Assembly: GCA_942492815.1 (NCBI GenBank)
Contig: OW818658.1
Location: forward strand, 5,402,198-5,466,197
Direction: 5' to 3'
Origin: Candidatus Hydrogenedentales bacterium
Lineage (GTDB): Bacteria > Hydrogenedentota > Hydrogenedentia > Hydrogenedentales > JAEUWI01
Length of the DNA: 64,000 bases
Shown here one piece after another: positions 6,259-32,902 of the stretch. Position 1 is the first letter of the stretch. The number at the start of each line of letters is the position of its first letter. The notes under the pieces are model-generated. The model ran no database searches. It was not told the origin of the DNA and was given only the letters and a program-made list of their open reading frames with translations. A program made the translations under genes and the position numbers.

Positions 6259-7764
6259 CTTGTCATTACCCATAAGTTTTCTGTCCTAGTGCGATTAGAT
6301 ACCCTTCAAGTAGGAGCATGAGTTGGAGCCAACCTCGCCAGATACTGAGCCAGCCGGGTGGGCCGTCGTTTTTTCTCCCGACGTAGCCGCCCATCCGGGC
6401 GATGGCGCGCATGGCGGATGCGTTGGTCCACCCGCACTTGGGACGGCCGATGGTTTTTTCGAGGATGTCCAGCGCTTCGGGCCGCAGCAGGCCGGGGCTG
6501 ACGGCCTCGTCGGGCAGATTATTGGCGAGGAGCTTGAGTTGGAGCAGATCCGCAGCGATGGGCGCATGAATGGCGAGCAGGGCTTCGATCCGCTTGGCGC
6601 TGGACAACTGGCTGTCTTCGATATGGGTGCCCGTCTTGAGAGCTTTGTGATACTCCTCGATCAGCCAGCGGCACGCATAGGCGCCAATCACGCGCCGGGT
6701 CTGGATGAAGTGCTCGCATGGCCAACTGGTCAGCAAGACCCAGTGGATAGGCTCCTTTACATCCGCCGGCGGATCGATCTCGCGCACTTCCACCACGCTA
6801 GTCGACTGGGGGGCATGGCGTCCTGGCAAGTCGCGCGGCGGCACGATCTCGGTTTTCACCGCCCGTACTTCTACCCGCGCTTTTCGTGCGGCAACATCGG
6901 GACGGGCGCGCAAATCCAGCGTGTACCGCCCCTGCACGGGAGCATGGGCCACCGTCGCGAATACACTGCCAGCCTCCGATGTGGTGCGTCGAGCCTGCGC
7001 AGCGCGGATCACCCAATCCTGGCTTATAGGCCGCGTTACATTGTTCAAGCACCTCGAAGATATCGGACTCCCGATCCGACACCAACGTCCAACGTGCCCC
7101 TTCGGGCGGTGCTCCGGCTTCTGCCATGGCCCGGCCCCAGCGCCAGGACTCACCCGTTTTGCCTTTCGTGCGCTTTTCGATCCGTTTTACGCGCTTGCGT
7201 TCAGCCCGGGTGCCCTCGGGTTCCGTACGGGCCCAAGCCTGTTGTCCAAAGACTCCCACGAGCACCACTTGCGGTTCGTGTTCGTTACCCCATTGCGTGA
7301 TGCGTGCCGCCAGATTGGTATGAACCAGGAGCCCTTGGCTGGTATCGCATGTGAGCGGCCCCATTCCCGGAATCGCTCCTCGCTGCGTAAAGGACAGCGC
7401 TGTCGTGTCCTCGATCAACAAGTATTCGCCCGGCTCTCGGCACTGTTCGCGTGTCGCGCTTACATGTGGCTTCAATATACCTTCGTGCGTCACCTTCGGA
7501 TTACCCAACAGCCGATAAGCGGCTTTCAGCGCCATTCCATCGTTAATGGCCTGTGGAAGCGTACCACGAGGATTCCTGCGAATACACGAGGCCACCTCCA
7601 CAAGACGACGGAGCAAGCGAAGGTCACCCAACGCCGCGCCCCAAAAGTGCCGATGAGCCCACGTCGATGTATCCATAACCATACTCCCAGCAATAGCTTA
7701 GCAAGAAAATACTATATATGGTATGGATATTAAATATAAACAACAATATATGGGTAATGACAAG
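6259..7764 (-). mobile_element. IS4-family (IS50/Tn5-like) insertion sequence, 1506 bp
   Basis: Perfect 16-bp TIRs CTTGTCATTACCCATA (6259-6274) / TATGGGTAATGACAAG (7749-7764). 9-bp direct repeat GGCTCTGCC at 6250-6258 and 7765-7773. Confidence 0.95.
6266..7682 (-). pseudogene. IS4-family DDE transposase, frameshifted near 7025
   Basis: ORF 6798-7682 has the Tn5-like N-terminus (ALGDLR, LLIEDTT, SDRESD). ORF 6266-7153 has DWVIRA, YACRWLIEEYHKALK (YREK) and PPGWLSIWRGW. The two join by a 1-nt shift. Confidence 0.9.
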
Positions 7765-7831: not shown

Positions 7832-8206
7832 TCACCTCACATACAAGCACCCGTGTGCTGTGCTTGGAAACACGCTCGGCTCCCGGTGTGCTACGCTATT
7901 CGGCAACGCCGATTCGTTGCCCGCCTTGCGCAGGCCGTGGAAGATGTCCGCCATTTCCTGTGTGATGATGTCTTCGAGCTTGAGTCGGCGAAGGATGTCG
8001 CTGAAATCGTCCTCGGGGAGCAGGCGCATACCGTCGTAGGCCGCCGCGTCCTCCGCCAGGGCTTCGGCGAGCTGGCGTAACTTGATCAGGGTGGTATTTG
8101 GGTCATCCAGGACATAGCGCTCCGCCCGCGCCGCGTATTCCAGGAGCTGGGGATCGTGATCGGCGAGGAAATTGAAGTTGGGCGATTTCAGGGCAGGTGC
8201 TGTCAT
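7832..8206 (-). pseudogene. Truncated DUF4145 (HsdR N-terminal, HEPN-like) paralogue: 98 homologous codons plus a 26-aa unrelated tail
   Basis: MTAPALKSPNF...LRKAGNE is 95/98 identical to the N-terminus of CDS 41103-42323. Homology ends at 7913. Confidence 0.8.
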
Positions 8207-8317
8207 GGGTGCTCTCTTTCGGTGGAGGTAGTTATACCGCAAGAGCGATGGCGGGATGCAAGGAAGAATGATTGGCCGGGAAAGGACGTAAAGAGTAACG
8301 CCCGGAATTTCGGAATG

Positions 8318-8499
8318 AAGGATCTTGGACATTCTTGTCCGAGGCAAAAGGCGTTACGGCATGGAGGCACTTTCTCCGCGTGCAGGTCGCCTGTGAATCC
8401 TGAGTCACAACTTCGGCGACACACGATCACGGAGCATGTTCGACGGGTCCTTCCGCGTTGGCGCGCGCCTTGCCTCGGACAGGAATGTCCAAGATCCTT
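8318..8499. repeat. REP-like inverted pair, same family as 2667-2918
   Basis: 8318-8347 vs reverse complement of 8470-8499, 29/30. Core TTGCCTCrGACAGGAATGTC. Confidence 0.85.
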
Positions 8500-8557
8500 T
8501 ATGCGGCAATGTCGGGTGAACCTTCGAACTTCGCCCCGCGCCAAAAGGCTATGCTCT

Positions 8558-11500
8558 CTATTCTTTATCTTGGCCTATCGGCTGGAGTGCGATGGTGATA
8601 ACTTCGCCCAGTCGCGCGCCGTTGACCGGTTCCGATGTGGCGGTGACGTAGCCTTGGGCCGATACTCGGGCGGCGAATTCCGTCTGGCGGTCCGCCATCA
8701 GCCAGCATCGTGGCAAGATGGTGAAGTCGCCCGCGTCGGGGCCGCGGGTTATCTTCACCGTTTCGGTGCTGATCCAATTAAATTCACTGCCGACCATTCC
8801 CAGGCCGATCTCAACTTCTGGCACTGGGACCGAAAGGCCTGAGTTGGCGTCCACGACACGCCCGCGAAAGGGTTTCTTGAGAATCAAGTTGGCACGGAGC
8901 GGCTCATTGAAACTTGGTTCTACCTGGATGGACGCATCGAAATAGTCGCTATGGGCAAAGGTAAAGAGGATTCTACATTGCTGTGGCGTGTGGGGCATTT
9001 CAAAGTGCCCATCGGCACCGGTGCGAGTCTGCCGGAGCACGGCAGGAGGCCTGACAGAGTGCCAACCTCCAGCCGCATTGCCCTCAAGGTCGGCTAACCA
9101 TCCCTTGAAAGTGACGGTGACACCCTCCACGGGCGCACCCCCCGCATCGATAACCTCACCGCGCAGCACGGCGCCCTCGCTCAGGGTGATAGATATAGAC
9201 GATTTCCATGAATCCGCTAGCAGGGTGATCGCTTCCGGTGCGTGAACGTCGTTGAGCACGGTCATCGTCTGATCCTGCGTGTCGTCCACGTGGTGAATCG
9301 TGAACTTTCCGTTCTCGTCCGTGCGTGCGCTGGCAGTCTGTTCTTCCGAGCGCAGCTCGCGTATGTCACGACAAATCGTGGCCCCTGCGACTGGATTTCC
9401 CTCGCTATCCCGCACGGCACCTGATAGCGAAACGCCAGCCTTCACGACAAGCTCCGCCGTGTGATCGCGTAACTGAGATTCGGGTGGGGTTACGCGGCTT
9501 TCCAGCGAGAAATCGCTTACATATTCGTCGGTGCTCAGCGCGACCTTCAGGCGGTTCCAACCGGTTGGCATTCTAACCTCCCAGTGCCCGTCGCTCGCGG
9601 TGATGCCTCTATCGCCCATCGGCACGGTGTCTTCGTACTCACCTATCAACCCCACGCTCACGTTCGGTGCGGGTTCGCCGCTTTCGTTTACCACGCGGCC
9701 GCCCAGCGTGATCATCTGGTGTTCCGCATCCGGCGCGGCGGTGTAGTCCACGTCTATAGACGCGAGCCCGGGCAGCGCCGCGAGGAACTCTTTGTAACCT
9801 TCGGTGATCCGGGTTTTCTTCAAGGACAGGACAGCGAGTTTTTCATAAGGGTAAATATAGCGCAAGTCCTCGTTGGCAATTGGGGCGGCTTCCAGATCGA
9901 GCGCCAGAAGCCCGGTGAGAGCAGCGAGATCATCAAGCTGTTCGCCCGAGATTCCCGTAAAGGAGAGATCGAGGGATTGGAGTCGGTCCAGCTCGGCCAC
10001 GCACTGGAGGGGGCTTCGATTCAGACTCGGGACCGTAATATTGAGCGCGCCGAGTTGCGGGAGGGCCGTCGCGGCACGATTTGAAAGTTCCACGCCCCTC
10101 AGGCTGAGATGGCGCAATTGCTTCAGGACGACAAGGGGCGTGAGATCGCGGGTTTGGAGTACTGCGTCCTCCAGGTCTAGCCAGCGCAGGTTCGCCAGGG
10201 GCCTCAAGTGTTTCAGCTCCACATCGGGCACCCTGCAACGCCGGAGGCTGAGGGCTTCCAGGTCGGTCCACCCGGCGATGTGGCGCAGCGTGCCGCCGGA
10301 GACCCCTATGCCTCGAAGATTGAGGTACTGGATACCATCCGCGGGCAGGCTCGAAAAGGCTGGGGTTATTCCTAAAACGGCCACGTCCAGGCGGACCATT
10401 TTTCCCGCCGGAATCTCCACGTTGCCCTTTGCCTCGCCGATCAGTTCCCAGCCTTCTTCCGAGTGCATCGACGTTTTGGCCTCGGAAGTATAGGTATAGT
10501 CCATCGGATCATGGAGGTAGAGGGTGCCGAGGGAACTATCCGCCGGAAAGGAGAGCGTGCGCGCGGAAAGCACTTCCGCGCCCTTGCCTTTGTCACCTTC
10601 TTCTTGCTTCACGACTTCGCGGACCAAGGCCTTTCGGATCTTAAAGGTGTGGTTATCGTAGGTCAGCAGGTAGAACGATTCATCCTCCTCGACGGCGTCC
10701 GCAGGCTGGCTGTGCCCGCTGCGCAGGTGGACCATGTACGGCCGCTCTTTCACGGTCGGGCCCGTTGATTTCTCCAGTGAAAACCGGCGTGATCGCGTCG
10801 TGGGCAATTCCTGACTTTCGTCTTCCGGTGTCGTGAGTGTCACCGTCTCACCATCGATGACGACCGTTTTCTCCCGGACAGAGGTTTCTATGCCATAGGC
10901 TTGGGCAATCACGGCACGCGCTATCTCCGCAGCTCCCGTGCCGCCGTGCATACCGTGCTCCAGGAGTACGCTAACGGAAATCTTCGGCTCGCGATCCATC
11001 ACGCCCGCGACAAACCAGGCGTGGTCCCGCATCTCGTAGGGAATCTCCTCATCCGACGCGTATTTCGACCACTTTGTGGCGCTCATGATCTGCGCGCTTC
11101 CGGTTTTTCCAAGCACCTGAACGCCGTCGACTCCCGCGCGCCAGCCGGTGCCGGCGGGGTAGTCGGGCGGGGCCTTTTCCACGGTCTTGCGGAGTGCCGC
11201 GTGAAGGACTTCCAGTGTGGCGTCGCTGAGCATTCGTTCGCTGCGATCAGGAGGCAACTCCGCGTTCATACGGGGTGCGACCCGGAAGCCGCCGTTCACG
11301 ATGGCCGCCATCATCACGGCGTTCTGCAGGGGCGTGATGGCTGCGCTGCCCTGGCCGATGCTGAGATTGACGGTGTCGCCGGGATACCATTTCTGCTCGC
11401 TGACCGTTTTGTCGGCGTAGTTCTGCTTTTTCCAGTCCTGGCTGGGGATGAGGCCGCTGATTTCGCGGGGTAGATCGATGCCCGTGGAAATTCCCAGGCC

Positions 11501-13120
11501 AAACTTGCCGGCCCACTTGTTGATCTTGTCCACGCCCAGGGAGAGGCCCACGTTGTAGAAAAACACGTCGCAGGAATAGACCAGCGCGTCCGTCACATTA
11601 ACCCCGTCATGCCCGTCGCGCTTCCAGCAGCCCCACGCCCGGCCTCCCCCGTTGATTCGATAGGAACCGCCGCAGTAGTGCGTGGTGTCCGGCGTGATGA
11701 CGCCCTCCTCCAGCGCGGCGGCGGCGAGGAGGATCTTGAAGGTCGATCCCGGCGGATACTGTTCCTGGTAGGCCCGCGTGTAGGCGGGCCGGATCGGAGA
11801 TGCGTTGCCCGAGGCCTTCTGACCTTCGATCACCTCTTTCATCGTGCCAAAGGGCGCGCTGGCCATGGCGAGCACCGCGCCGGTATCGGCGTTCAGCACG
11901 ACGATGGCACCCGCCTGGCCTTCGAGCAGGGACTCACATTTTGCCTGCAATGCAGGAGCCTGCGGGCTTGGCAGTGATTGCTCGGTTTCCTCAGCCGCGG
12001 TTTCTTCCTTTGCTTCTTCACGATCGGCAATCGCACCACCCACGGCAAACACGGTGCCGGCGAACAGGATGAGGGATAGCACCGCCGCGATGCCGAGGCG
12101 CGCCGGGGTATTCAGGGAATTGCCGAGCAATGCGGCGATGCGCGTGTTGATCTGCGTGCGCGTGGCGAAGAGGCCGGTGGCCATGGTGCGCTGACGCTGT
12201 TGGCGGGCCTGGACGAGGATGGCGTAGAGCTGTTCCGCGTAGGCGGTGACGTCGTCGTCGGTGCGGACGACGGCGCGGTCACAGGCGAGCTCCACGGCGG
12301 CCTCCCAGCGTCGGCTGGCCCACCAGGTGACGGGGTGGAAGAAGAAGAGGATCTGGGCGAGGCGTCGCAGGGCATTGGCGATGGGATCGCGGTGTTTTAG
12401 GTGGGTCAGTTCGTGGCGCAGTGCCCAGGCGAGTGCGGTTTCATTCTCGGGCGCGTTGAGCCATTGTGGGATGACGATGGTGGAGCGGAACCAGCCCACC
12501 ACGGCGGGCGATTCGAGCTCCGCAGTCACGCGCAGGGGCGGAACGGTGCGCAACTGGAGCGAGGCCGCGCCTTGGGCGAGCGCCGTGGTGGCGTGGGTCG
12601 ACGGAGAGGTTGTGCGCGCGATAAAACGGCGCAGGCGGATGCGATCGAGCAGCGTGGAGCCAAGGAGGAGCACGACGCCCGCGAGCCAGAGGGACGCGAG
12701 GATGCGCGGTGTGAGTACGTTCCAGTTGATCGGTGTTCGCACGGGGATGGCGGTTGCGGCCGGCTTGGCGGGGGTGGCCGGAAGCGGTGCAGGCGGGAGT
12801 TCAAGGGCAGACATCTGCGGCATGGCCTCGCTGCGAACCGGCGGCGCTTCGGGCAATGGGGCTGCCGTGATGATCGGTTCGGGCGGCGCGAGGCGCAACA
12901 CGGGAACCACCGCGCCGAAAGTGAGCGTGACAATGGGTTTGGCCAATACGATGAGCCAGAGCATGGCGCAGGCGCGTGGCGAACGGATGCGAAAGACCGT
13001 GATGGCGAGCGCGACCGCGACGGCGAGTACGGCCAGCTCCGCGCTGGCGAAGAAGAGGCGCTCGAGGAGGGGGTGCGCGTCCATGGCGGCGAGAAAGGTG
13101 TTGAGCGTATCGGTGTTCAT
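8558..13120 (-). CDS. BlaR1-like M56 peptidase fused to a PBP2-type transpeptidase, leucine-rich repeats and carboxypeptidase-regulatory-like Ig repeats (1520 aa)
   Basis: ATG 13120 overlaps the blaI stop (ATGA). TM helices, HELTH at 12401-12415 with ELACD. STFK 11735-11746, SCD 11567-11575, KTG 11099-11107. LxxLxL LRRs about 9760-10330. Confidence 0.85.
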   Translation of the reverse strand: MNTDTLNTFLAAMDAHPLLERLFFASAELAVLAVAVALAITVFRIRSPRACAMLWLIVLAKPIVTLTFGAVVPVLRLAPPEPIITAAPLPEAPPVRSEAMPQMSALELPPAPLPATPAKPAATAIPVRTPINWNVLTPRILASLWLAGVVLLLGSTLLDRIRLRRFIARTTSPSTHATTALAQGAASLQLRTVPPLRVTAELESPAVVGWFRSTIVIPQWLNAPENETALAWALRHELTHLKHRDPIANALRRLAQILFFFHPVTWWASRRWEAAVELACDRAVVRTDDDVTAYAEQLYAILVQARQQRQRTMATGLFATRTQINTRIAALLGNSLNTPARLGIAAVLSLILFAGTVFAVGGAIADREEAKEETAAEETEQSLPSPQAPALQAKCESLLEGQAGAIVVLNADTGAVLAMASAPFGTMKEVIEGQKASGNASPIRPAYTRAYQEQYPPGSTFKILLAAAALEEGVITPDTTHYCGGSYRINGGGRAWGCWKRDGHDGVNVTDALVYSCDVFFYNVGLSLGVDKINKWAGKFGLGISTGIDLPREISGLIPSQDWKKQNYADKTVSEQKWYPGDTVNLSIGQGSAAITPLQNAVMMAAIVNGGFRVAPRMNAELPPDRSERMLSDATLEVLHAALRKTVEKAPPDYPAGTGWRAGVDGVQVLGKTGSAQIMSATKWSKYASDEEIPYEMRDHAWFVAGVMDREPKISVSVLLEHGMHGGTGAAEIARAVIAQAYGIETSVREKTVVIDGETVTLTTPEDESQELPTTRSRRFSLEKSTGPTVKERPYMVHLRSGHSQPADAVEEDESFYLLTYDNHTFKIRKALVREVVKQEEGDKGKGAEVLSARTLSFPADSSLGTLYLHDPMDYTYTSEAKTSMHSEEGWELIGEAKGNVEIPAGKMVRLDVAVLGITPAFSSLPADGIQYLNLRGIGVSGGTLRHIAGWTDLEALSLRRCRVPDVELKHLRPLANLRWLDLEDAVLQTRDLTPLVVLKQLRHLSLRGVELSNRAATALPQLGALNITVPSLNRSPLQCVAELDRLQSLDLSFTGISGEQLDDLAALTGLLALDLEAAPIANEDLRYIYPYEKLAVLSLKKTRITEGYKEFLAALPGLASIDVDYTAAPDAEHQMITLGGRVVNESGEPAPNVSVGLIGEYEDTVPMGDRGITASDGHWEVRMPTGWNRLKVALSTDEYVSDFSLESRVTPPESQLRDHTAELVVKAGVSLSGAVRDSEGNPVAGATICRDIRELRSEEQTASARTDENGKFTIHHVDDTQDQTMTVLNDVHAPEAITLLADSWKSSISITLSEGAVLRGEVIDAGGAPVEGVTVTFKGWLADLEGNAAGGWHSVRPPAVLRQTRTGADGHFEMPHTPQQCRILFTFAHSDYFDASIQVEPSFNEPLRANLILKKPFRGRVVDANSGLSVPVPEVEIGLGMVGSEFNWISTETVKITRGPDAGDFTILPRCWLMADRQTEFAARVSAQGYVTATSEPVNGARLGEVITIALQPIGQDKE

Positions 13121-13533
13121 GATTGGTTGCCCCTTTTTTTGCGTTCTTTGATCAGGGCCTGAATGGCCTCCAGGTCGGCCTCGTCGATGTCGTGATCGTT
13201 GATCAGACAGGCGATGGCGCGCCTCGGACTGCCATCGAGGAGGCGCCGGGTAATCTGCCGCAGCGTGCGCGCTGCAAAGTCGTTGCGCGAGACCGTGGCC
13301 CGGAGGCGGAAGCCCCGCTCCGTGGTGGCCACGGGCTCCAGGTAACCCTTCTCGCGAAGATTCGCCAAGACTGTTCGGATGGTGGTCTTGGCGAGCGGTT
13401 CGTTGGCATCGTTGTAGGCGTCGATGACCTCGGCTGAGCTGCATTCGCCCAAGCGCCACACGGTGGCCATCACGTCCTCTTCCAGGCGGGTGAGGTCATT
13501 GGGACGCTTTTCGTCGTTCTTTTTACGGACCAT
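13117..13533 (-). CDS. BlaI/MecI/CopY family transcriptional repressor
   Basis: LTRLEEDVMATVW...SSAEV...TTIRTVLANLREKGYL winged helix. Directly upstream of the M56 gene. Confidence 0.9.
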   Translation of the reverse strand: MVRKKNDEKRPNDLTRLEEDVMATVWRLGECSSAEVIDAYNDANEPLAKTTIRTVLANLREKGYLEPVATTERGFRLRATVSRNDFAARTLRQITRRLLDGSPRRAIACLINDHDIDEADLEAIQALIKERKKRGNQS

Positions 13534-13557
13534 GATGGAGCGCTCCGGGTAGTTGCG

Positions 13558-13613
13558 ACTATAAAATTGAGGCTGTAACTATAAAAATAGTCCATCGTGG
13601 TCCGATTTGTCAA
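13558..13613 (-). promoter_or_regulatory. Putative blaI promoter (TTGACA-N18-TATTTT) overlapped by the palindromic operator ACTAT-AAAA-ATAGT plus a degenerate second box
   Basis: TTGACA at 13613-13608 (minus strand). Perfect 14-bp dyad 13578-13591. Half-match ACTATAAAAT 13558-13567. Confidence 0.65.
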
Positions 13614-13643
13614 TCACTATTTTGCAGCGGACATGGGCCGGGT

Positions 13644-13678
13644 AAAAAAAAGCCGCGGATGTCGCCATCCGCGGCTTT
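13644..13678 (-). terminator. Rho-independent terminator of the FG-GAP gene
   Basis: 12-bp stem AAAGCCGCGGAT/ATCCGCGGCTTT followed by a T-run on the minus strand. Confidence 0.8.
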
Positions 13679-13691
13679 GCTTTCGTGCCGC

Positions 13692-16600
13692 CTATCGATG
13701 AAGGAGGATTGATATATTGCTTGCGCCACTGTTGCCGGCAGCGATATCGGGCAAGCCATCCTCGTTGAAGTCGCCGGTGACGATGCCACTCGTAAAGGGA
13801 TCGGCCAGATTGTAGCTGCTCATACCCGAGAAGAAGCCCGTGCCATCGCCGACGAGGATGCCGACCGCCTCGATCCCGGGTTCTTCAGTGAAGAGGATGT
13901 CCGGTGTGCTGTCCAGATTCACGTCGGCAATGAACAAGTGGCTGTAGCTGGCGTCGTAGGGGCGATTCGGGATCTCGAAGGGGACGGAACTGTTGAAGCT
14001 GCCATCGCCCCGACCAAGGCTTACATAGATGGTGCTATCGTTAAAGTTGGTTCCGATGACATCGGGATCGCCGTCGCCATTCACGTCGCCCACGGCGATG
14101 GCGTACTGCCCGTTCCCGGCCGAGGAGGGTGCCTGGAATGATCCATCTCCGTTGCCAAGGTAGACCCGCGCCCCCCCCCCGGCGTCGGCGGTAACCAGAT
14201 CGGGATTGTTGTCCCCGTTGATGTTGGCGACTCTGACGACTTGCGGGGAGCTGCCGCCCGAGACGTCAAAGGAATTCTGAAAAGTGCCGTCGCCTATCCC
14301 GAGGAGGATCGCGACCCCGTTGCTCGGCGAAGGCACGGCGGCCACGTCCGTGGCTCCATCTCGGTCAAAGTCGCCGAGGGCAACGCTCGCGACGCGGTCC
14401 CCGGAGGTGATGAACGTAGGTGCTTCAAAAGCGCCTTCGCCGCTTCCCAGCAGTATCCCGATCCGGCCGGGCGATGCGTGGGCGGAGATCGCATCGGGCA
14501 ACGTGTCGTTGTTAACGCGGCCGACGACCAGGTCATTGATTCCGGTGGCGAGGGGCGAGGCGATGGGGGACGCGAAGGTGGCATCCCCATTGCCTGGAAG
14601 CACCAGCACCTGTCCGTCGGAGGTACGAACGGTGACCAGGTCCAGGTGATCGTCTCCATCCATGTGGGTCGCATTGAGCGAGCGGTTGCCGAAATCGCCC
14701 GTCTGGACGATGAGCTGGGTGTCGAATTCGCCACCGCCCAGACCGCGCAGCACGACGATTTCGCCATAGCCCGAACCCGTAATGGGGAGCAGATCGGGGA
14801 TCGCGTCGCCGTCCGCGTCCAGATTGGTGATGCACGGGGAGAATCGCGACGAGCCGACAAGCCGACTGTCCGCGAAACCGCCGTCGCCGTCGTTGAAGAA
14901 GACGTTGATGGCGCCCGAGTTGATCACCGAATTCGCCGTGGCCAGATCGATGCTGCCATTCCCGTCGAGATCGCCCGCCGTGAGGCAGCGGGCGCTTCCG
15001 GTGATGGGATAGGTAACCTGCGCACCGAAAGTTCCATCCGCGGCTCCGAGCAACACACCCAGCGGCGCTTCCTGTCCCGTGAAGGCAACGTCCAGCGAAT
15101 CATCGCCGTTGAAATCGGCCAACACGAGATGGTCGGGGGCAAAGACCGTATCGTAGCTGATCGGATCCTGGAAGGTTGCGTCTCCGTTGCCCAGCCGTAT
15201 CTCGAACTTTGAAAGCCCGCGATTCAGCACGTACAGATCGAGATTGTCATCGCTATTGGCGCGTGCCAGGCCGAGATCGAGCACATTGTTTCCGGGGATT
15301 TGCAGGGTGGTGGGCGCTTGCAGGGTTCCGTCGCCGTTTCCGAGGAAGAAGTTCATGAACCCGGAGTTGCTGCTGCTGGCGACCACGTCGGGGACGTCGT
15401 CGTTGTTGATGTCGCCGATGGCTAAATCGCCGGTGCTTTCTGCGGTCGCGGCGAAGCCGACGGGTTCGCCGAAGGTACCATCCCCGTTGCCCAGCGCGAT
15501 GAAGACGCTGTCATCGATGAATCCAGCGAACACGGCATCAAGGTTCGTGTCGTCGTTCATGTCCTTCAGCGTCACGTCCGCCGGGAGTGCGCCGATGGCA
15601 ATCGAGTTCGGCGAGTTGAAGGTGCCGTCTCCGCGGTTCAGGATAGATACCAGCGCGGCGGTTGTGACGTTGTTCAGGGAGTCGTTGGTCACCACGACGA
15701 TATCCGGCAGGTCGTCGCCGTTAATGTCGCCCGTGGCGATATCCTGGGCCGTTCCTCCGTAGGGGAATCGTGCGCCGGGATAGAGCAGGGCGATGGTTTC
15801 CTGAATCGTGATCGCACCCGCATTGGTGACGCCATCGGGCACGATGGTCAGTCCCGTGACCTGTCCGGAGAGGGTCGTCTCTTCGGTCGTGAGGCGCGCC
15901 GTAACATCGAGGAGGGGCAGACCGCCGGACGGCACATTGCCTTGGAGCACGAAGGAGAAAGCGCCGCTGGCATTGGTGAGGCCCTGGCCGCCGAGGCTGG
16001 TGAAGACGGCCGCGCCTTCGACGGGCGATTCGTCTTCGCGTTGCACGGTGCCGCTTACCGTCGTGGAGAAGAGCACCAACCGGGGTGCCAGGATGCCCGC
16101 GTCGGTGATTCCGTCCGCCACGACGGGAATGAGGCCGGAGTCGAGCTCGTCTTCACCGACCGTTGTGACGAGCGTGACGAAGTTGGTCGTAGAGGGCAGC
16201 GTGAGGACCAGAGTGAAGAAGCCATTGGCGTCGGTGGTGGCGGTGCCGCCAAAGGCCGTTGTGGTTACGACGACCCCGGCCACGGGGTTGCCTTCCGCGT
16301 CCCGCACGAAGCCCTCAATGGTCGTGGAAATCGTATCTGAGGCGATGGTGACGCGTTTTGCCGAGGTGACGCCCTGATTGGACGCGGTCACGACGGCGAC
16401 GCCGTTTTGGAGTGCCGTGAGGACGCCTGCTTCGTCCACCGTGATGAAATCGGTACTGCTCACGCGGTAGGTCGTTCCCGCAGCCACGGGGGTGACGTCA
16501 TTCTCCGTGTCGTCGAACTGGATGGCCGTCGCGGCGAGTTGGGTGGTGGCTTCGGGCTGCAATACCGAGGCGGCGGCGTCCAGGTCAAGCTTTTTCGGGA

Positions 16601-19600
16601 AGAGCGGGGGCGTGTCGGACAGCGTGAAGCTGTTTACGATGGCGACGCCATTGTTCAGCACGCGGAAACTCCCGCTGGTGGCATATTTCATCTGCCCGTC
16701 GATGTTGGCCACGCCCACCACGCTGATCACGTCGTCGGCCACGAAATCCGGCCTCGATCCGGGGCCGCCGGTTCCAAATTGATCGGGCGCGGTAATATTG
16801 GGAATGACGAAGAGGCCATCGTCGTCGACGCGGAAGGCCTGGCCATTGGCGAAGAGGGTATAGCGGCTGTCGAGGAGTACGGGCGGATCATCGCCCTGCT
16901 TGGGTGGTGTTGGCAGATCGAGGGCTACAACGACTTCCTGGCGGACACGGTCCTGGAATGCCGTACTCTCGATGATCGATTTGTGATCGGTTCCCGGCAC
17001 TTCAATCACGCTGTCGCCCTCGACCCGGAAGCCGCGCAGGCATTCGATGTCGCCGAAGTTGTCCACGCCGATGTTGGAACAGTTCGCCCGTTCAACATCG
17101 GTCAGCCCGTCGGGGGTGACAAAATTGATGACACCACCCACGCCGGGCAGCACCTGATCGCGCTGGTAGAAGGGGACACCGGGGAAATCCTGCAACACGA
17201 GATCGCGGCTGATACCGTCGGCAATGATGGCGACATCGGGGTTGAGATCCCCCGAGAGGCGCACGGTGTCGCCGCCCAGGCTGTGGCCCACGAGGATGAG
17301 GAAGGGGCGGGGGCATTCGGCGGAGCCGGGCACATTTTCCCGGGCTTCTTCTGTGAGGCGATCGAGCCACTGGTTTACGGCGAAGAGCTGTGACGCGGCC
17401 GAATTGGCGGCGGGGAAGACTTTTGCCGTAACGCGATAGGGCTCAATTTCCCGCAGGCTGTCCGCCAGTGGGCCGAAAGCGGCGGAGAAGTCACCCGCGC
17501 TCCATTCTTCGGGGCAGAGCCCGGGGAAGGCCTGTGGGCATCTCGGTCCTCCTTCGAGGAAGGCCACGGCGACCTCAAAACAGTTGCGCACGACACCGGT
17601 GACGGCGTAGGGCGGGCAATTGCCGCCCCAGCCGGCCACATAGAGGCCGGAGCCGGGATCGGAAACGATCTCGCTCGCGTCGTCGCTCACCCGGCCCGAA
17701 GCTGCGATCTCAAAGGCGTTGGTGCCATGCTCGAAGCTGAGGAAGTAGGCCGCGGCCCCGGCGGGCAGGCCGGACATGTTGGGGTAGGTAATTTCCACGG
17801 GCGGGTCGAAGCGGGCCTGGGAGGGTTGCAGCGTCCAGGCGAACTGCGTCGCCACGCCGCCGGGCAGGGCCATGGGCACGTCGTCGTAGTGCACCTGGGT
17901 GAGGGACAGGGTGGCGGGATTCGACGGGGAAGGAATGGTGCCGTCGGAGTTCGTCATGGAACCTGCCTTGACCACCATTTTCAGCCCTTCAACACCCACG
18001 ACGCGCAGCTCCACGTCCTGGGTGCCGTCGTACTGCACCTCGTTCGCGGGGTCGAGCTGTGGTAGGAATACCGGTCGCGGCAGCGTGTTGGCGGCGTTCG
18101 CGATAATGGTGGTCTCGAAGGGCAGCCGGGGGAAGCCACCGCCGGTGATGGGTTCTCCGCCGAGGGTTGTGGCGGTGCGCCCGTCGAAGCGACCTCGGGC
18201 GGGGCCATCGGGAATGCCGGTAAACAGAAAGCGACCTTCCTCATCGGTGATGGCCGGTTCCAGGAAGACGCCATTGACCGAGATGTCCACCTCCACACCG
18301 CCGACGGGCGAGCTCGCGTTGTCGAGCACAACCCCGGAGAAGGTCGTGGGCTGCCCCTCGGTGCGCTGAACCCCTTCAATCGTGAAGGTGGCGGGCAGGC
18401 CCGTGTTGCCTTCGAAATTCGCTTCGATGATGTTCTTTCCGGGTGTCTCCCCCGCAGTGAAGTAGGTCCGCGCATTCCCGGTGATATCCGTATCGATGGT
18501 GATCTCCGGGGTCCCGTCCGGTTCGAATCCGCCATCGCCGGACACGACCCGGAAGGTCACGGGGACGCCGCCCACGGAATTGCCGCCGTCACTCACCCAG
18601 GCAATCAGACGCTCCGGTGCCGGGGCACCCGTTTCCGCGCGCTGATCATTGCCCATCATGATGTTGATCTGGGCAGGCGGCCCGGCCAGGGCCGAAGCGC
18701 AGAAGAAGGTGGTCCCCGCGATATCCTCGCTGGTAACGCTGATCCGGTTATTGCCCTGGCCCGCGTCGGAGCCCAGCGTCCAGAAAACCGTAGCCAATCC
18801 CTCGGAATCCGTCCTTGTCTGCAGGGTCATCTCACCGGTGTCCGCACCCGACGCCGTGGCGAGGCGCCCGTCGCTTCGGGTGACGTGGAAGTTCACGGTC
18901 TTCCCGGCGAAGGGCGAGCCGTCTTCGTTGGCCACCTTCACGACGACCGGGTTCGCGAGTTCGGCGCGAATCTCCCCGCTCTGGTCATTACCGGAGACGA
19001 TGGTCATGCGCGGGCCCGTCGCGGCCACGCGGGTGACGGTCACCGTGGCGGTCGTGCTGTTGCCGGCCGCATCGACGCCCGTGGCGGTGATGACATTGGC
19101 ACCGAGGGCGAGGGGCACCGCCTGGCGTTCGAAGGAGCCATTGGTGCCGATGCCGGGGAATACCTCGGCCACGCCGCCGTTGACCTGGACTTCCAGGCCC
19201 AGGAAGCCGCTGAGCACATCGCTGATGCGCCCGGCGACCTGAACGGATTCATTGGTAAGCTCGGCGCCGTCTTCCGGGAAGTCGATGGCCACCATGGGCG
19301 CCTGTGCGTCCTGAGTGATCTCCACCGGGGCCGGGGCGCTGCGGAGGCCGAGGGCATTCTCCGCGATGACCGAGAGGCGATTGCGCTGGCCGGCCAGGAG
19401 CGTTACATCCACGGAGAAGGCGCCGGATTCATCCGCGACGGTCGTAAAAGTCATGTTCGTGGTTACGATGACATGAATGGTCGTGTTAGGGTCCGCCGAG
19501 CCGGAAATGGTTGCGGCGGTTCCGGTGAGGGGCGTCAGGGGGAATACAAGGTTGGCCGGCGTGCTGGGCGGCGCATCGGGGTCCCGGACTTCGATCAGGT

Positions 19601-19934
19601 CGGTTTCCGTCGCGGTGTCGATTTCCTCGCCCAGCGTCACCGTCAGCGAGACGGTATAAACACCAATGTCTTCGTAGGTATGGGAGGGGGACTGGCTTGT
19701 GCTGGTGCTGCCGTCGCCGAAGTCCCAGAGCCAGCTTTCCGGGGTGCCGCCGCTGGAAGTCGTGGACGCGTCGGTGAATTGAACCAGCAGCGGTGCGGGA
19801 CCGGTCGCTGGGGAGGCCGTAAACGCCGCACTTGGAACGTCGGGCTCCGGCGGCGTACATGCCGTAGAGAGCAGGCCAATGGCGGCAATGATCGCGACCG
19901 AGCAAAGGAGGGGCAAACCGAAAAGCGACTTCAT
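13692..19934 (-). CDS. Giant surface lipoprotein: PKD, Ig-like/invasin-like and carboxypeptidase-regulatory-like domains, internal alpha/beta-hydrolase-like module, C-terminal FG-GAP/VCBS repeats (2080 aa)
   Basis: Lipobox LSTAC after MKSLFG (start moved from 19997). PKD motif SWLWDFGDG..STSQSPSHTY. Many DxNxDxxxD / LGNGDGTF repeats. GHSLG at 17274-17288. Confidence 0.85.
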   Translation of the reverse strand: MKSLFGLPLLCSVAIIAAIGLLSTACTPPEPDVPSAAFTASPATGPAPLLVQFTDASTTSSGGTPESWLWDFGDGSTSTSQSPSHTYEDIGVYTVSLTVTLGEEIDTATETDLIEVRDPDAPPSTPANLVFPLTPLTGTAATISGSADPNTTIHVIVTTNMTFTTVADESGAFSVDVTLLAGQRNRLSVIAENALGLRSAPAPVEITQDAQAPMVAIDFPEDGAELTNESVQVAGRISDVLSGFLGLEVQVNGGVAEVFPGIGTNGSFERQAVPLALGANVITATGVDAAGNSTTATVTVTRVAATGPRMTIVSGNDQSGEIRAELANPVVVKVANEDGSPFAGKTVNFHVTRSDGRLATASGADTGEMTLQTRTDSEGLATVFWTLGSDAGQGNNRISVTSEDIAGTTFFCASALAGPPAQINIMMGNDQRAETGAPAPERLIAWVSDGGNSVGGVPVTFRVVSGDGGFEPDGTPEITIDTDITGNARTYFTAGETPGKNIIEANFEGNTGLPATFTIEGVQRTEGQPTTFSGVVLDNASSPVGGVEVDISVNGVFLEPAITDEEGRFLFTGIPDGPARGRFDGRTATTLGGEPITGGGFPRLPFETTIIANAANTLPRPVFLPQLDPANEVQYDGTQDVELRVVGVEGLKMVVKAGSMTNSDGTIPSPSNPATLSLTQVHYDDVPMALPGGVATQFAWTLQPSQARFDPPVEITYPNMSGLPAGAAAYFLSFEHGTNAFEIAASGRVSDDASEIVSDPGSGLYVAGWGGNCPPYAVTGVVRNCFEVAVAFLEGGPRCPQAFPGLCPEEWSAGDFSAAFGPLADSLREIEPYRVTAKVFPAANSAASQLFAVNQWLDRLTEEARENVPGSAECPRPFLILVGHSLGGDTVRLSGDLNPDVAIIADGISRDLVLQDFPGVPFYQRDQVLPGVGGVINFVTPDGLTDVERANCSNIGVDNFGDIECLRGFRVEGDSVIEVPGTDHKSIIESTAFQDRVRQEVVVALDLPTPPKQGDDPPVLLDSRYTLFANGQAFRVDDDGLFVIPNITAPDQFGTGGPGSRPDFVADDVISVVGVANIDGQMKYATSGSFRVLNNGVAIVNSFTLSDTPPLFPKKLDLDAAASVLQPEATTQLAATAIQFDDTENDVTPVAAGTTYRVSSTDFITVDEAGVLTALQNGVAVVTASNQGVTSAKRVTIASDTISTTIEGFVRDAEGNPVAGVVVTTTAFGGTATTDANGFFTLVLTLPSTTNFVTLVTTVGEDELDSGLIPVVADGITDAGILAPRLVLFSTTVSGTVQREDESPVEGAAVFTSLGGQGLTNASGAFSFVLQGNVPSGGLPLLDVTARLTTEETTLSGQVTGLTIVPDGVTNAGAITIQETIALLYPGARFPYGGTAQDIATGDINGDDLPDIVVVTNDSLNNVTTAALVSILNRGDGTFNSPNSIAIGALPADVTLKDMNDDTNLDAVFAGFIDDSVFIALGNGDGTFGEPVGFAATAESTGDLAIGDINNDDVPDVVASSSNSGFMNFFLGNGDGTLQAPTTLQIPGNNVLDLGLARANSDDNLDLYVLNRGLSKFEIRLGNGDATFQDPISYDTVFAPDHLVLADFNGDDSLDVAFTGQEAPLGVLLGAADGTFGAQVTYPITGSARCLTAGDLDGNGSIDLATANSVINSGAINVFFNDGDGGFADSRLVGSSRFSPCITNLDADGDAIPDLLPITGSGYGEIVVLRGLGGGEFDTQLIVQTGDFGNRSLNATHMDGDDHLDLVTVRTSDGQVLVLPGNGDATFASPIASPLATGINDLVVGRVNNDTLPDAISAHASPGRIGILLGSGEGAFEAPTFITSGDRVASVALGDFDRDGATDVAAVPSPSNGVAILLGIGDGTFQNSFDVSGGSSPQVVRVANINGDNNPDLVTADAGGGARVYLGNGDGSFQAPSSAGNGQYAIAVGDVNGDGDPDVIGTNFNDSTIYVSLGRGDGSFNSSVPFEIPNRPYDASYSHLFIADVNLDSTPDILFTEEPGIEAVGILVGDGTGFFSGMSSYNLADPFTSGIVTGDFNEDGLPDIAAGNSGASNISILLHR

Positions 19935-20083
19935 CCTGTGGATCTCCCGTGATGTTGAAGCACCATAATACAATATGAGGCGAGTTCTGGGAAGCACGTT
20001 CTTCTGAAGGCCGAAGTCTGCGCGTGGGCGCTCGCTTCCGGTGGGTGTGTGTTGCCCGTCCTATCGTGCGCGCCGGAAAACAG

Positions 20084-20114
20084 AAAAGGGCCCGCGCGGA
20101 TTGCGCGGGCCCTT
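20084..20114 (-). terminator. Rho-independent terminator
   Basis: Stem AAGGGCCCGCGC/GCGCGGGCCCTT with an A-run on the left, downstream of the minus-strand gene ending at 20140. Confidence 0.75.
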
Positions 20115-20139
20115 AGCTTGTGTGCCGTTTTGTACCAAT

Positions 20140-22632: not shown

Positions 22633-22918
22633 GGGAAATGGGCTCCTTTAGATGGTTACCCCCGAATATTGCTCTCGAAGAATGGTAGCGCATGGGCACG
22701 GGGGATCACAAAAGAGAGTGAAGAGATTTGACCACGGAAAGGCACGGAATTTCACGGAAGGGAGATACAACAGGGACGACGGGGCATTTCTTTCCTGCTC
22801 TCTCTGTTGTCTCTGCTGTCCCTGCAACCATGTGATACGTTGGCAATGCGCGCGCGGGGCGGTGTAATGTCTGGGGAAAATTCAGTCACCGAAAGTTCGA
22901 TTGCGAAGGAGATTTGTC

Positions 22919-23278
22919 GTGCCGATTAAAGTGTATGCCTATAAGAATTGTGATACCTGCCGAAAGGCGGTAAAGTGGCTGGGCAAACAGGGCGTGGCCT
23001 TCAAGGAAATGCCCATTCGCGAGACGCCACCGACGGTTGCGGAGCTGAAGAAAATGCTGAAGGCGATGGGGGGAGATGTGCGGAAGCTGTTCAACACCTC
23101 GGGCGTGGATTACAAGGCGCTGAACCTGAAAGACAAGCTGCCGGGAATGAGCGAGGCGGAGGCGCTGGCGTTGCTGGCATCGAATGGGAATCTGGTGAAG
23201 CGACCCTTCGTGATGGGGGATGGCGTGGCTACGGTGGGATTTAAGGAGGAGACGTGGGTGGACATTTTTGGGAAATAG
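22919..23278 (+). CDS. ArsC/Spx family thioredoxin-fold protein
   Basis: GTG start after AAGGAGA. Motifs CDTCRKA and NGNLVKRPF. Confidence 0.85.
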   Translation: MPIKVYAYKNCDTCRKAVKWLGKQGVAFKEMPIRETPPTVAELKKMLKAMGGDVRKLFNTSGVDYKALNLKDKLPGMSEAEALALLASNGNLVKRPFVMGDGVATVGFKEETWVDIFGK

Positions 23279-23309
23279 AGAATTTTGAATAGTGAATGTT
23301 GGGCCCTGC

Positions 23310-23612
23310 GGGTGCCACCCTCAAAGGGAGGAGCGAAGCGGGGGAACTTTGTGGGTGACGGGACTTACACCTGGCAAAGCCCGCTCAACATGCATCCATG
23401 ACTTACTACAGCATGAAGCCCGAGCCCGGCGGTTTCATTTACGCCCTCCGCCCAAAGCGGTCGCGACCTCTGGTGGGGTGGGTTCAGAAGCATAGCACTT
23501 GGAAAGTTGCTGTAGGTCAGTTTTCACTGGCCTTGAGGTGGATTCTGCTCGTGTGAAGTCTCATCACCCACAAGCTCCCGCAGCGAAGCTGCCCCGCTTG
23601 AGGGTGGCACCC
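23310..23612. repeat. 303-bp element with about 60-bp imperfect inverted arms (GGGTGCCACCCTCAA termini)
   Basis: 23310-23370 vs reverse complement of 23551-23612. The terminal 15 bp are perfect. Confidence 0.75.
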
Positions 23613-23640
23613 ATGGTTCCCTTTTTTCGCGTCAGTCCCC

Positions 23641-25143: not shown

Positions 25144-25472
25144 GGGGAGGCTCCTGATGTTATTGGGATTCTGCTATACTGCGCCGTCGATCGTAAATGG
25201 CGATCCTAGCATCTGGCGGCTTCGGGCCGCCAGCCGATAAAGAACGCGCGCCGCCCGGGCGCGCTGGAGCAGTACATGCAGATTTTGCTGGTGGTCTATT
25301 TGCTGGTGCGGGATACGCTTTTCTTCGTGTTGAATTTTGTTACCGAGGGGATATCGGCGCTGAGCCTGCTGCTGGGCAGCCTGCTGTAGGGGGCACAGGG
25401 GCCATGGGTCCTATGGGTCATGTGATGTTTGAAACCACAAAGTCATAAGTCCCATACGACCCATTTTTTGCC

Positions 25473-26297: not shown

Positions 26298-26381
26298 GAG
26301 AATTCCTTTGCGGGATAGGATATGCAATGTGAACGGGCGTGATTATAGCAGGTGGCGACCGTTTGCATCATACCGGTAGTG

Positions 26382-26795: not shown

Positions 26796-26835
26796 GGATT
26801 GCTCCCCTTGGTTTGAGAAAATGTTCATAAGCGGA

Positions 26836-27516: not shown

Positions 27517-27564
27517 ATGTTTACCCTCCAGTTGTAGCGCCGAGTATTGGCCGTCCGATGGAGG

Positions 27565-32741: not shown

Positions 32742-32754
32742 GGAAGAGGAAGGA

Positions 32755-32897: not shown

Positions 32898-32902
32898 CAC
32901 TT

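What the first reader, a model, noticed from the sequence alone, without database searches (positions are those of the whole stretch)
7832..8296. Second copy of the same promoter + first 98 codons, synonymously diverged and cut just before the HEPN histidine
Seen: 7913-8296 (minus) aligns to about 41014-41396. A hand count gives about 25 synonymous and 3 non-synonymous codon differences in 98 codons, while about 65 bp of upstream non-coding DNA is nearly identical. The short copy reads LRKAGNE-SALPN, losing the AAH histidine. The junction is a mini-hairpin, TCGGC-AAC-GCCGA. Inference: both copies were under purifying selection. A co-regulated, catalytically dead HEPN half could poison HEPN dimers (antitoxin-like), or this is a recently truncated second hsdR-like allele.
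Basis: partly seen in the sequence, partly recalled or inferred. Interest (0 to 1): 0.7.

Follow-up and report, generated by a model that had tools for sequence, protein, structure and literature searches.

The report
Gene stump at an inversion breakpoint
The short copy is the promoter and first ~100 codons of a nuclease-like gene, left behind where a 33-kb chromosome segment was flipped, and it is most likely a dead remnant rather than a regulator of the intact copy.

Summary
Window 7907-8324 (minus) and 40985-41402 (plus) are inverted copies. In 98 codons there are 25 synonymous and 3 non-synonymous codon differences (dN/dS 0.03). The short ORF ends its homology just before His101 of the DUF4145/HEPN R-x7-H motif.

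The interpretation needs changing. The 406-aa protein belongs to a conserved, single-copy, stand-alone family in Hydrogenedentota (HEPN, coiled coil, PD-(D/E)xK nuclease). Relatives carry the full-length gene exactly where the short copy sits, downstream of a BlaI/BlaR1-like pair. The ~33 kb between the two copies is inverted relative to relatives and has the opposite GC skew to both flanks. The gene is joined at codons 96-100 to a foreign intergenic region, through a 15-nt microhomology.

The neighbouring IS is a clean, independent insertion with a 9-bp target duplication. It did not cut the gene.

The low dN/dS and the near-identical upstream DNA reflect family-wide constraint. A 31-nt core is 100% identical across species. 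Neither shows selection on the fragment. No related genome has a long/short pair.

Verdict: an ordinary gene remnant. The antitoxin-like reading is not excluded but is unlikely.

The parts
7907..8206 (-). Gene-derived part of the short copy: codons 1 to ~100 of the DUF4145/HEPN-nuclease gene. Codons 96-100 (7907-7921) are of ambiguous origin (microhomology).
   Evidence: 91% identical to 41103-41402. 89-92% identical to the 5' end of the full-length genes in L001, L006, L007 and L019. Pfam DUF4145 at 32.8 bits against a cut-off of 23.1.
7832..7906 (-). Read-through tail of the 124-aa ORF (24 codons plus stop), translated from intergenic DNA.
   Evidence: 7780-7862 is 95-98% identical to the GH36-to-hydrolase intergenic region of L027 and L028. 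7863-7906 resembles 40740-40775.
7907..7921 (.). Junction microhomology CGCCGATTCGTTGCC. It is shared by gene codons 96-100 and by the intergenic element also seen at 40755-40775.
8207..8324 (-). Conserved upstream region of the short copy, continuous with the ancestral BlaR-side intergenic DNA. The 31-nt core lies at 8231-8261.
   Evidence: Core TTGCATCCCGCCATCGCTCTTGCGGTATAAC is identical in both window copies and in 9 loci of relatives. Aligns with the L019 intergenic region.
8301..8516 (.). Palindromic element between the BlaR1-like gene and the short copy's promoter. Arms are 8301-8347 and 8470-8516.
   Evidence: The arms are conserved in the L019 intergenic region. The element is absent upstream of the long copy.
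8558..13120 (-). BlaR1-like M56 peptidase + transpeptidase + LRR/CarboxypepD_reg gene (1520 aa), the ancestral upstream neighbour. A BlaI-like gene lies just upstream, at about 13117-13533.
   Evidence: Pfam. Same gene order in L001, L004 and L019. Ancestry break at ~10.45 kb.
6259..7764 (-). IS4/Tn5-family insertion sequence, 1506 bp, with perfect 16-bp inverted repeats and a transposase split by a frameshift near 7030. A bystander.
   Evidence: NCBIfam transpos_IS4_3 split over two ORFs. 9-bp target duplication GGCTCTGCC at 6250-6258 and 7765-7773. The target palindrome is uninterrupted in L027 and L028.
7907..41015 (.). ~33-kb block (gene 5' end, BlaR, 2101-aa gene, DUF4838 ... HAD, DUF72, alpha/beta hydrolase) that is inverted relative to relatives.
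   Evidence: L027 and L028 join window ~6205 (same orientation) to window ~40681 (opposite orientation). On the L006 contig the hydrolase and the full-length gene lie on the same strand, 32 kb apart. GC skew is +0.071 in the block against -0.08 and -0.11 in the flanks, while relatives are uniformly negative.
40985..41102 (+). Upstream region of the long copy. Homology to relatives and to the short copy starts at about -95 to -118. The core lies at 41049-41079.
41103..42323 (+). Intact 406-aa gene: DUF4145/HEPN (residues 1-128, R93-x7-H101), coiled coil (149-268) and a PD-(D/E)xK HSDR_N-like nuclease (D305, E319-A-K321).
   Evidence: Pfam and NCBIfam. Family alignment. AF2 model with pLDDT 82. 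Foldseek hits to HEPN proteins and to HsdR 3h1t. PDB profile hit to 3h1t.
40740..40775 (.). Intergenic element upstream of the hydrolase promoter, similar (30/35) to 7887-7921. Probably the partner arm of an old palindrome split by the inversion.

Best explanation
The short copy is a gene stump. It is the native promoter and the first ~96-100 codons of the resident copy of a conserved ~406-aa gene (HEPN/DUF4145, coiled coil, PD-(D/E)xK nuclease), still sitting at the ancestral locus downstream of blaI/blaR1-like genes.

Shown: a rearrangement that inverted the ~33-kb block from this gene to an alpha/beta-hydrolase gene joined the gene, at a 15-nt microhomology in codons 96-100, to the intergenic DNA that in relatives lies between a GH36 gene and the hydrolase.

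Shown: the stump lacks the catalytic His101, the last 22-residue core helix of the HEPN bundle, the coiled coil and the nuclease domain.

Inferred: because the upstream element is intact, the stump is probably still transcribed, and a 124-aa peptide may be made. The peptide most likely does not fold stably and has no selected function.

The function of the gene is supplied by the intact copy at 41103-42323, which sits at the other end of the inverted block in a non-ancestral context.

The low dN/dS between the copies and the identical promoter core record constraint on intact genes. The two sequences are as diverged as alleles of different species. The adjacent DNA shows a sharp ancestry break, so allelic or xenologous replacement in this neighbourhood is the likeliest source of the divergence (inferred).

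The IS nearby is an unrelated later or earlier insertion.
For: Synteny: a full-length gene lies directly after BlaI plus an M56/transpeptidase gene in L001, L004 and L019, and after the 2085-aa PKD/FG-GAP gene in L006 and L007. Window 10497-23284 is collinear with these loci. The L019 intergenic region aligns continuously with the window from 8501 to codon ~100 and then stops.

Inversion: L027 and L028 show GH36 followed by the hydrolase in the opposite relative orientation. On the L006 contig the hydrolase and the gene are on one strand, 32 kb apart. The GC skew changes sign at ~8 kb and ~41 kb only in the window.

Junction: 7780-7862 is the native intergenic DNA of L027 and L028, and the junction carries a 15-nt microhomology.

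IS: it has a 9-bp target duplication and the empty site is present in relatives.

Loss of essential parts: helices span 19-31, 36-57, 68-77, 83-101 and 107-128. R93 and H101 have the same spacing as the catalytic R146 and H154 of the DUF4145 RNase RAZR (PMC13017515). H101, W123 and most of helix 107-128 are invariant or nearly invariant in the family.

No conserved short form: 9 genomes carry one copy each, even though both search peptides lie in the first 100 residues. The only other stump (L025) breaks at codon 54.

Constraint is family-wide: the 31-nt core is identical in 9 loci of relatives, and dN/dS is 0.01-0.08 for every pair in this region.

The copies are not recent duplicates: dS between short and long is 0.49 +/- 0.11, against 0.22-0.45 between species in neighbouring genes. 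They share only 1 exclusive derived site.

Recombination next door: between window and L019, dS in the BlaR gene jumps from ~0.3 to saturation at ~10.45 kb.
Against: - The stump's ORF, start codon and upstream core are all intact.
- Of its 11 lineage-specific substitutions, 9 are at third codon positions. That departs from neutral decay (p ~0.001-0.01).
- An inversion that duplicates its breakpoint region would explain the two inverted 5' copies in a single step. The copies would then have started identical, and their present dS ~0.5 with dN ~0.01 would mean the fragment itself was under long-term purifying selection.
- I could not date the inversion. The GC skew of the block shows no amelioration, but the substitution-spectrum test had no power.
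- The origin of the intact copy's position is unresolved. It has novel junctions at about -95/-118 and at the stop codon.
- No expression data could be obtained.
Confidence: 0.77

Rival explanations
1. Functional fragment. The promoter plus HEPN fragment arose as an inverted duplication at the inversion breakpoint. It has since been kept by selection as a co-regulated, catalytically dead partner that caps or poisons HEPN dimers of the 406-aa protein, in the manner of an antitoxin or dominant negative.
For: - A duplicating inversion explains the structure in one event: two inverted copies exactly at the ends of the inverted block.
- dN/dS is 0.03.
- 9 of the stump's 11 own changes are at third codon positions.
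- The 31-nt upstream core is unchanged.
- The ORF is open.
- HEPN domains act as dimers with a composite R/H active site (PMC13017515).
Against: - The fragment lacks a whole core helix (107-128), not only the histidine, so a folded partner is doubtful.
- The copies share only 1 exclusive derived site. The short copy is no closer to the long copy than to other species' genes.
- Its branch is about 2.6 times longer than the long copy's (21 against 8 changes, p = 0.02).
- It carries R77L at a position that is R/K/Q in all other members. If it is gene-derived, A99S falls at an invariant position.
- No pair exists in 9 related genomes.
- The other stump, L025, has a different breakpoint.
- There is a sharp ancestry break 2.5 kb away.
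Confidence: 0.08
2. The short copy is a partial duplicate made from the long copy (segmental or retro-like duplication). On this reading the long copy is the original at its native site.
For: The long copy's distances to relatives (dS 0.22-0.36 at the 5' end, 0.44-0.53 for the rest) are normal for a vertically inherited gene.
Against: - The short copy, not the long one, is contiguous with the ancestral upstream DNA: BlaR, the palindromic element and the intergenic region.
- The long copy's flanks (K'' region, MptE-like gene) are not next to this gene in any relative. The hydrolase and MptE neighbours in L016-L018 and L026-L028 lack the gene.
- The copies are 9.5% apart.
Confidence: 0.05
3. An invertible switch. 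The two inverted 5' copies are recombination sites that flip the 33-kb block and swap which promoter and N-terminus drives the gene body.
For: Inverted repeats of ~420 bp bracket the block. The block is inverted relative to relatives.
Against: - Only 91% identity, and the longest identical run is ~38 nt.
- Both states would encode almost the same N-terminus behind the same promoter core, so nothing would switch.
- No recombinase gene lies nearby.
- There is no mosaic pattern along the repeats.
- The GC skew shows one stable orientation.
Confidence: 0.02
4. Assembly artefact: a chimeric join or collapsed repeat created the truncated copy.
For: The junction 24-mer was not found in public metagenome contigs.
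Against: - The window's proteins are recorded from one 7.93-Mb contig.
- The copies differ at 29 of 300 positions, so they would not be collapsed.
- The junction has microhomology and lies in otherwise native DNA.
- The GC skew flips independently at both ends.
Confidence: 0.02

Closest known systems
Gene remnants (pseudogene stumps) at inversion or illegitimate-recombination breakpoints in bacterial chromosomes
   Same: - A full-length orthologue sits at the same site in relatives.
- There is an abrupt loss of homology at a short microhomology.
- The block has the opposite orientation and opposite GC skew to its flanks.
- Catalytic parts are lost.
   Different: - A second, intact and 9.5% divergent copy of the same gene sits exactly at the other end of the inverted block.
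- The stump still has an untouched promoter and an open frame.
DUF4145 (PF13643) HEPN domains, e.g. the RNase domain of RAZR / PD-T7-4, and the N-terminal domain of PRK11448-type HsdR
   Same: - Pfam match for both copies.
- R-x7-H spacing as in RAZR R146/H154.
- Helical-bundle fold similar to solved HEPN proteins (long copy).
   Different: - The short copy lacks the His and the last helix.
- No zinc finger and no MNT partner.
- RNase activity is untested for this family.
Type I restriction endonuclease subunit HsdR with an N-terminal DUF4145 (NCBIfam NF008521 / PRK11448, 1123 positions)
   Same: The 406-aa protein aligns to positions 3-390: HEPN, coiled coil and the PD-(D/E)xK nuclease with its D...EAK motif.
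   Different: - The helicase motor and C-terminal domains are absent in the whole Hydrogenedentota family, whose members all end at the same point (WPTPEEL..).
- No hsdM or hsdS lies nearby.
- The gene is single-copy and syntenic among housekeeping and glycan-use genes.
HEPN-MNT type II/VII toxin-antitoxin pairs, and dominant-negative truncated toxins
   Same: HEPN proteins dimerise, so a dead partner could in principle block the composite active site.
   Different: - Known antitoxins are MNT nucleotidyltransferases, not HEPN fragments.
- There is no adjacent partner gene.
- The fragment is 33 kb from the full-length gene.
- The pairing is not conserved.
IS4/Tn5-family insertion sequences
   Same: DDE transposase with a Tnp_DNA_bind N-terminus and a Tn5 dimerisation C-terminus. 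Terminal inverted repeats. 9-bp target duplication.
   Different: The transposase reading frame is broken near 7030. The IS has no role in the truncation.

Membership tests
DUF4145 / HEPN superfamily | Profile match above the curated cut-off | tested here: met
   PF13643 scores 42.2 bits (long copy) and 32.8 bits (short copy) against a cut-off of 23.1.
DUF4145 / HEPN superfamily | Complete alpha-helical bundle fold | tested here: not met
   For the short copy, homology ends at residue ~100. The model of the long copy has a further core helix at 107-128. The long copy itself matches HEPN structures (2hsb, TM 0.76 normalised to the target).
DUF4145 / HEPN superfamily | Catalytic Arg...His motif (R-x4-7-H) | tested here: not met
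   The short copy keeps R93 but has L at position 101. The long copy and all 24 aligned relatives have R93 and H101. The spacing equals that of RAZR R146/H154.
Type I restriction enzyme HsdR (PRK11448 type) | PD-(D/E)xK nuclease domain | tested here: met
   Long copy only: D305, E319-A-K321 are invariant. HSDR_N and 3h1t hits. The short copy has no such domain.
Type I restriction enzyme HsdR (PRK11448 type) | SF2 helicase/translocase motor and full length of ~1000-1100 aa | tested here: not met
   NF008521 scores 336.8 bits against a cut-off of 729 and covers only positions 3-390 of 1123. Twenty-two relatives end at 397-427 aa at the same point.
Type I restriction enzyme HsdR (PRK11448 type) | Genomic association with hsdM and hsdS | tested here: not met
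   No methylase or specificity genes flank either window copy or the genes in L001, L006, L019, L021 and L023.
Toxin-antitoxin pair (HEPN toxin with cognate antitoxin) | Adjacent, co-transcribed partner gene conserved across genomes | tested here: not met
   The copies are 33 kb apart and divergent in orientation. There is one copy per genome in 9 related genomes. No MNT gene was seen.
Toxin-antitoxin pair (HEPN toxin with cognate antitoxin) | Physical neutralisation of the toxin by the partner | not testable with these tools
   Needs co-expression and pull-down experiments.
Pseudogene / gene remnant | Full-length orthologue at the same syntenic site in relatives | tested here: met
   L001, L004, L006, L007, L008 and L019.
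Pseudogene / gene remnant | Signs of relaxed constraint since truncation | tested here: inconclusive
   The stump has R77L and possibly A99S at conserved positions, and its branch is longer (21 against 8 changes, p = 0.02). However, 9 of its 11 own changes are at third codon positions and the promoter core is unchanged.
IS4/Tn5-family IS | Transposase, terminal inverted repeats and a 9-bp target duplication | tested here: met
   transpos_IS4_3 match split over two frames. 16-bp perfect inverted repeats and the GGCTCTGCC duplication. The empty site is present in L027 and L028.

The most novel reading that the evidence does not exclude
The stump is not dead. An inversion that duplicated its own breakpoint created a promoter-bearing, catalytically inert HEPN fragment. 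It has been kept under purifying selection (dN/dS ~0.03 since the duplication) because it modulates the full-length HEPN-nuclease, for example by forming inactive heterodimers. That would be a new, self-derived kind of antitoxin.
Probability: 0.07. Interest if true: 0.65.

Novelty: already known. Interest (0 to 1): 0.2.

Why it matters
If the stump is a remnant, the case matters mainly as a caution. A low dN/dS between a truncated copy and its intact relative, together with identical promoters, can be entirely inherited from the time when both sequences belonged to intact genes. Synteny in relatives is the test that decides.

The locus is also a clean example of an inversion visible three ways: gene order in relatives, a microhomology junction, and a GC-skew flip.

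The more interesting object is the intact gene. It belongs to a conserved, single-copy, stand-alone 'first third of HsdR' (HEPN + coiled coil + PD-(D/E)xK) in Hydrogenedentota. It has no restriction-modification partners, and its upstream element is ultra-conserved. Its function is unknown.

Tried and rejected
- **IS-mediated deletion.** I first concluded there was no target duplication, because I took the target palindrome for part of the inverted repeats. Comparison with the empty site in L027 and L028 showed a normal 9-bp duplication. Rejected.
- **The 406-aa protein as a truncated hsdR pseudogene.** Rejected, because more than 20 relatives have the same length and the same C-terminal end.
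- **The 127 nt between the gene and the IS as unknown 'junk'.** There were no matches at first. The stretch was later identified as native intergenic DNA of relatives.
- **A 13-nt match between the IS flank and the 3' flank of the gene in L019 and L007**. It did not extend in the alignment and is treated as chance.
- **The long copy as a clear xenologue.** Its distances to relatives are normal for vertical descent once neighbouring housekeeping genes are used as the yardstick. Left open.
- **Dating the inversion from lineage-specific substitution asymmetry.** No lineage showed significant asymmetry, so the test had no power.
- **Search for the exact junction in metagenome contigs.** No hit.
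- **Exact look-ups of both window proteins among encoding contigs.** Not on record.
- **Rfam scan of the whole window.** No hit.
- **Sigma-70 consensus scan.** It found no canonical promoter upstream of the short copy. 'Promoter' therefore rests on conservation only.

Full report
**1. Observation.**
The two copies are real. The repeat finder reports inverted arms 7907-8225 and 41084-41402: 319 nt, 91% complementary. A MAFFT alignment carries the homology upstream to about -95/-118 of each ATG, with two one-base indels.

The short ORF is 7832-8206 on the minus strand (124 aa). The long ORF is 41103-42323 on the plus strand (406 aa).

In 98 codons there are 25 synonymous and 3 non-synonymous codon differences. 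Nei-Gojobori gives dS 0.50, dN 0.013 and dN/dS 0.027. Fisher's test gives p = 7e-15.

The proximal 57-65 nt upstream are 91-93% identical counting gaps. That is far more conserved than synonymous sites (p = 2e-5). The short product keeps R93 and N97 and loses H101.

**2. What the gene is.**
Pfam finds DUF4145 in both copies and a weak HSDR_N match in the long one. NCBIfam aligns the long protein to positions 3-390 of the 1123-position PRK11448 HsdR model, far below that model's cut-off.

This is not a broken hsdR. A database search returns more than 20 proteins of 397-427 aa, 53-91% identical, all ending at the same point (WPTPEEL..). They come from Hydrogenedentota MAGs, with one copy per genome. 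They sit among glycan-utilisation and housekeeping genes, with no hsdM, hsdS or helicase nearby.

An AlphaFold model (pLDDT 82) shows three parts:
- an N-terminal helical bundle (helices 19-31, 36-57, 68-77, 83-101, 107-128);
- a coiled coil (149-268);
- an alpha/beta nuclease domain.

Foldseek's best hits are solved HEPN proteins, followed by the HsdR fragment 3h1t. A profile search of PDB sequences also hits 3h1t, across the D...EAK motif.

DUF4145 is a HEPN family often fused to restriction nucleases (PMC3710099). In the DUF4145 RNase RAZR, R146 and H154 are required for defence (PMC13017515). R93 and H101 here have the same spacing and are invariant in the family. So 'cut just before the HEPN histidine' is correct. 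The cut also removes the last core helix, the coiled coil and the nuclease domain.

**3. The short copy sits at the ancestral site.**
In L001, L004 and L008 the full-length gene follows a BlaI-like gene and an M56/transpeptidase gene. In L006 and L007 it follows a 2085-aa PKD/FG-GAP gene. Window 10497-23284 is collinear with these loci, at 84-88% nucleotide identity.

The closest architecture is L019 (GCA_047514455.1). It carries BlaI, a 1509-aa M56/transpeptidase/LRR gene, a full 408-aa gene and then GFO_IDH_MocA. Its intergenic region, including a palindromic element, aligns continuously with window 8501 down to codon ~100, where the homology stops.

**4. What cut the gene.**
It was not the IS. 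In L027 and L028 the sequence CCTCG-TTCCCAGGCTCTGCCTGGGAA-TGCAGTCCCC... is uninterrupted. In the window a 1506-bp IS4/Tn5-family element (6259-7764) lies inside it. The element has perfect 16-bp inverted repeats and is flanked by a 9-bp duplication, GGCTCTGCC. Its transposase is split by a frameshift near 7030.

The DNA between the IS and the gene (7780-7862) is 95-98% identical to the intergenic region that, in L027 and L028, links a GH36 gene to an alpha/beta-hydrolase gene.

In those relatives, window ~6205 is followed within ~200 nt by window ~40681 in the opposite orientation. On the L006 contig the hydrolase and the full-length gene lie on the same strand, 32 kb apart. So the ~33-kb block between the two copies is inverted in the window.

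GC skew confirms this independently. It is -0.08 left of 8 kb, +0.071 across the block and -0.11 to the right. The same genes in relatives show uniformly negative skew across both junctions.

The left junction lies in 15 nt (7907-7921, CGCCGATTCGTTGCC) that match both gene codons 96-100 and an intergenic element also present at 40755-40775. This is a microhomology joint.

**5. The long copy.**
It is a complete unit, from about -95/-118 to the stop codon, placed at the other end of the inverted block. Its homology to relatives ends at the stop codon. The GFO_IDH_MocA cluster that follows the gene in every relative is absent from the window. An MptE-like gene follows instead. Relatives of that MptE-like gene and of the hydrolase have no DUF4145 gene next to them. 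How the intact copy came to be there is unresolved.

**6. What the substitution pattern does and does not show.**
Every pair of sequences in this 5' region has dN/dS of 0.01-0.08. A 31-nt upstream core is 100% identical in both window copies and in nine loci of relatives.

The two window copies are not close relatives of each other:
- dS between short and long is 0.49 +/- 0.11. Neighbouring housekeeping genes give 0.22-0.45 between the window and L027 or L028.
- The copies share one exclusive derived site. The short copy and L006 share three.
- The short copy is roughly equidistant from everything (27-33 differences in 300 nt). The long copy groups with relatives (17-23 differences).

Next door, comparison of the BlaR1-like gene with L019 shows dS ~0.3 for the first ~870 codons. 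From ~10.45 kb onwards dS is saturated and amino-acid identity falls to 31-45%. This neighbourhood has therefore been replaced by deeply divergent alleles.

The simplest reading is that most of the short-long divergence accumulated while both sequences belonged to intact genes.

The alternative would explain the structure in one step: an inversion that duplicated its breakpoint, followed by in-place divergence. It would then require long-term selection on the fragment. In its favour, 9 of the stump's 11 own changes are at third codon positions, and the ORF and the upstream core are intact. Against it:
- the fragment lacks a core helix;
- the stump's branch is longer (21 against 8 changes, p = 0.02);
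- it carries R77L at a position that is otherwise R/K/Q;
- no long/short pair exists in nine related genomes, although both search peptides lie in the first 100 residues;
- the only other stump found (L025) has a different breakpoint, at codon 54.

I could not date the inversion, and no expression data were available.

**7. Verdict.**
The finding is a gene stump at an inversion / illegitimate-recombination junction, with its conserved upstream element still attached. It is most likely non-functional (confidence ~0.77). The antitoxin-like reading keeps a probability of about 0.07-0.08.

The phenomenon is ordinary. The intact stand-alone HEPN-nuclease family, and the clean triple signature of the inversion, are the parts worth remembering.

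Noticed in passing
41103-42323 and relatives L001-L012, L019-L023: A ~400-aa stand-alone 'first third of HsdR' (DUF4145/HEPN + coiled coil + PD-(D/E)xK) is conserved across Hydrogenedentota MAGs (53-91% aa identity). It is single-copy and syntenic, with no R-M partners. Its N-terminal 130 residues are its most conserved part. Function unknown.
   Followed up: partly
8231-8261 and 41049-41079: The 31-nt upstream core TTGCATCCCGCCATCGCTCTTGCGGTATAAC is 100% identical in both window copies and in 9 loci of relatives whose synonymous sites differ by dS 0.2-0.6. It does not fit the sigma-70 spacing of the scan tool (19-nt spacer). It may be a promoter or operator of unknown type.
   Followed up: partly
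about 8000, 41000 and 56000: GC skew changes sign at ~8 kb and ~41 kb, which are the ends of the inverted block. It changes sign again near 56 kb. The third flip was not examined.
   Followed up: partly
8558-13120 (break at ~10450): In the BlaR1-like M56 + transpeptidase gene, compared with L019, the first ~870 codons have dS ~0.3 and ~90% aa identity. The C-terminal LRR/CarboxypepD_reg extension has saturated dS and 31-45% identity. The extension is absent in L001, and the whole gene is absent in L006 and L007. It behaves as a hypervariable, recombining module.
   Followed up: partly
6259-7764: IS4/Tn5-family IS inserted into the centre of a 21-nt palindrome (TTCCCAGGCTCTGCCTGGGAA). The transposase is broken by a frameshift near 7030, at a site with no homopolymer run.
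   Followed up: yes
L025:1373-1620: Another metagenome contig has the promoter and only the first 54 codons of the gene, right after a DUF4838 gene, followed by unrelated DNA. This is either a second, independent stump or a chimeric assembly.
   Followed up: partly
8301-8347 / 8470-8516: Palindromic element (47-nt arms, 85% complementary, 122-nt spacer) between the BlaR1-like gene and the stump's promoter. The arms are conserved in L019. It may be a terminator or a REP-like element.
   Followed up: no
41008-41030 and 54422-54444; 23310-23612; 22720-22765, 32749-32903; 38711-38771, 61147-61216: Several dispersed short repeats and REP-like inverted pairs in intergenic DNA. Some also occur in the L019 and L007 intergenic regions.
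   Followed up: no
5772-6173 (minus): 133-aa ORF with lower GC (0.545) and no Pfam or PADLOC match. Its DNA is conserved in L027 (89%) next to the GH36 gene.
   Followed up: no
L024:6001-8462: A more distant 438-aa relative (45% identity) is followed directly by an IS3-type transposase pair. This looks like a true hsdR truncated by an IS, unlike the Hydrogenedentota family.
   Followed up: no
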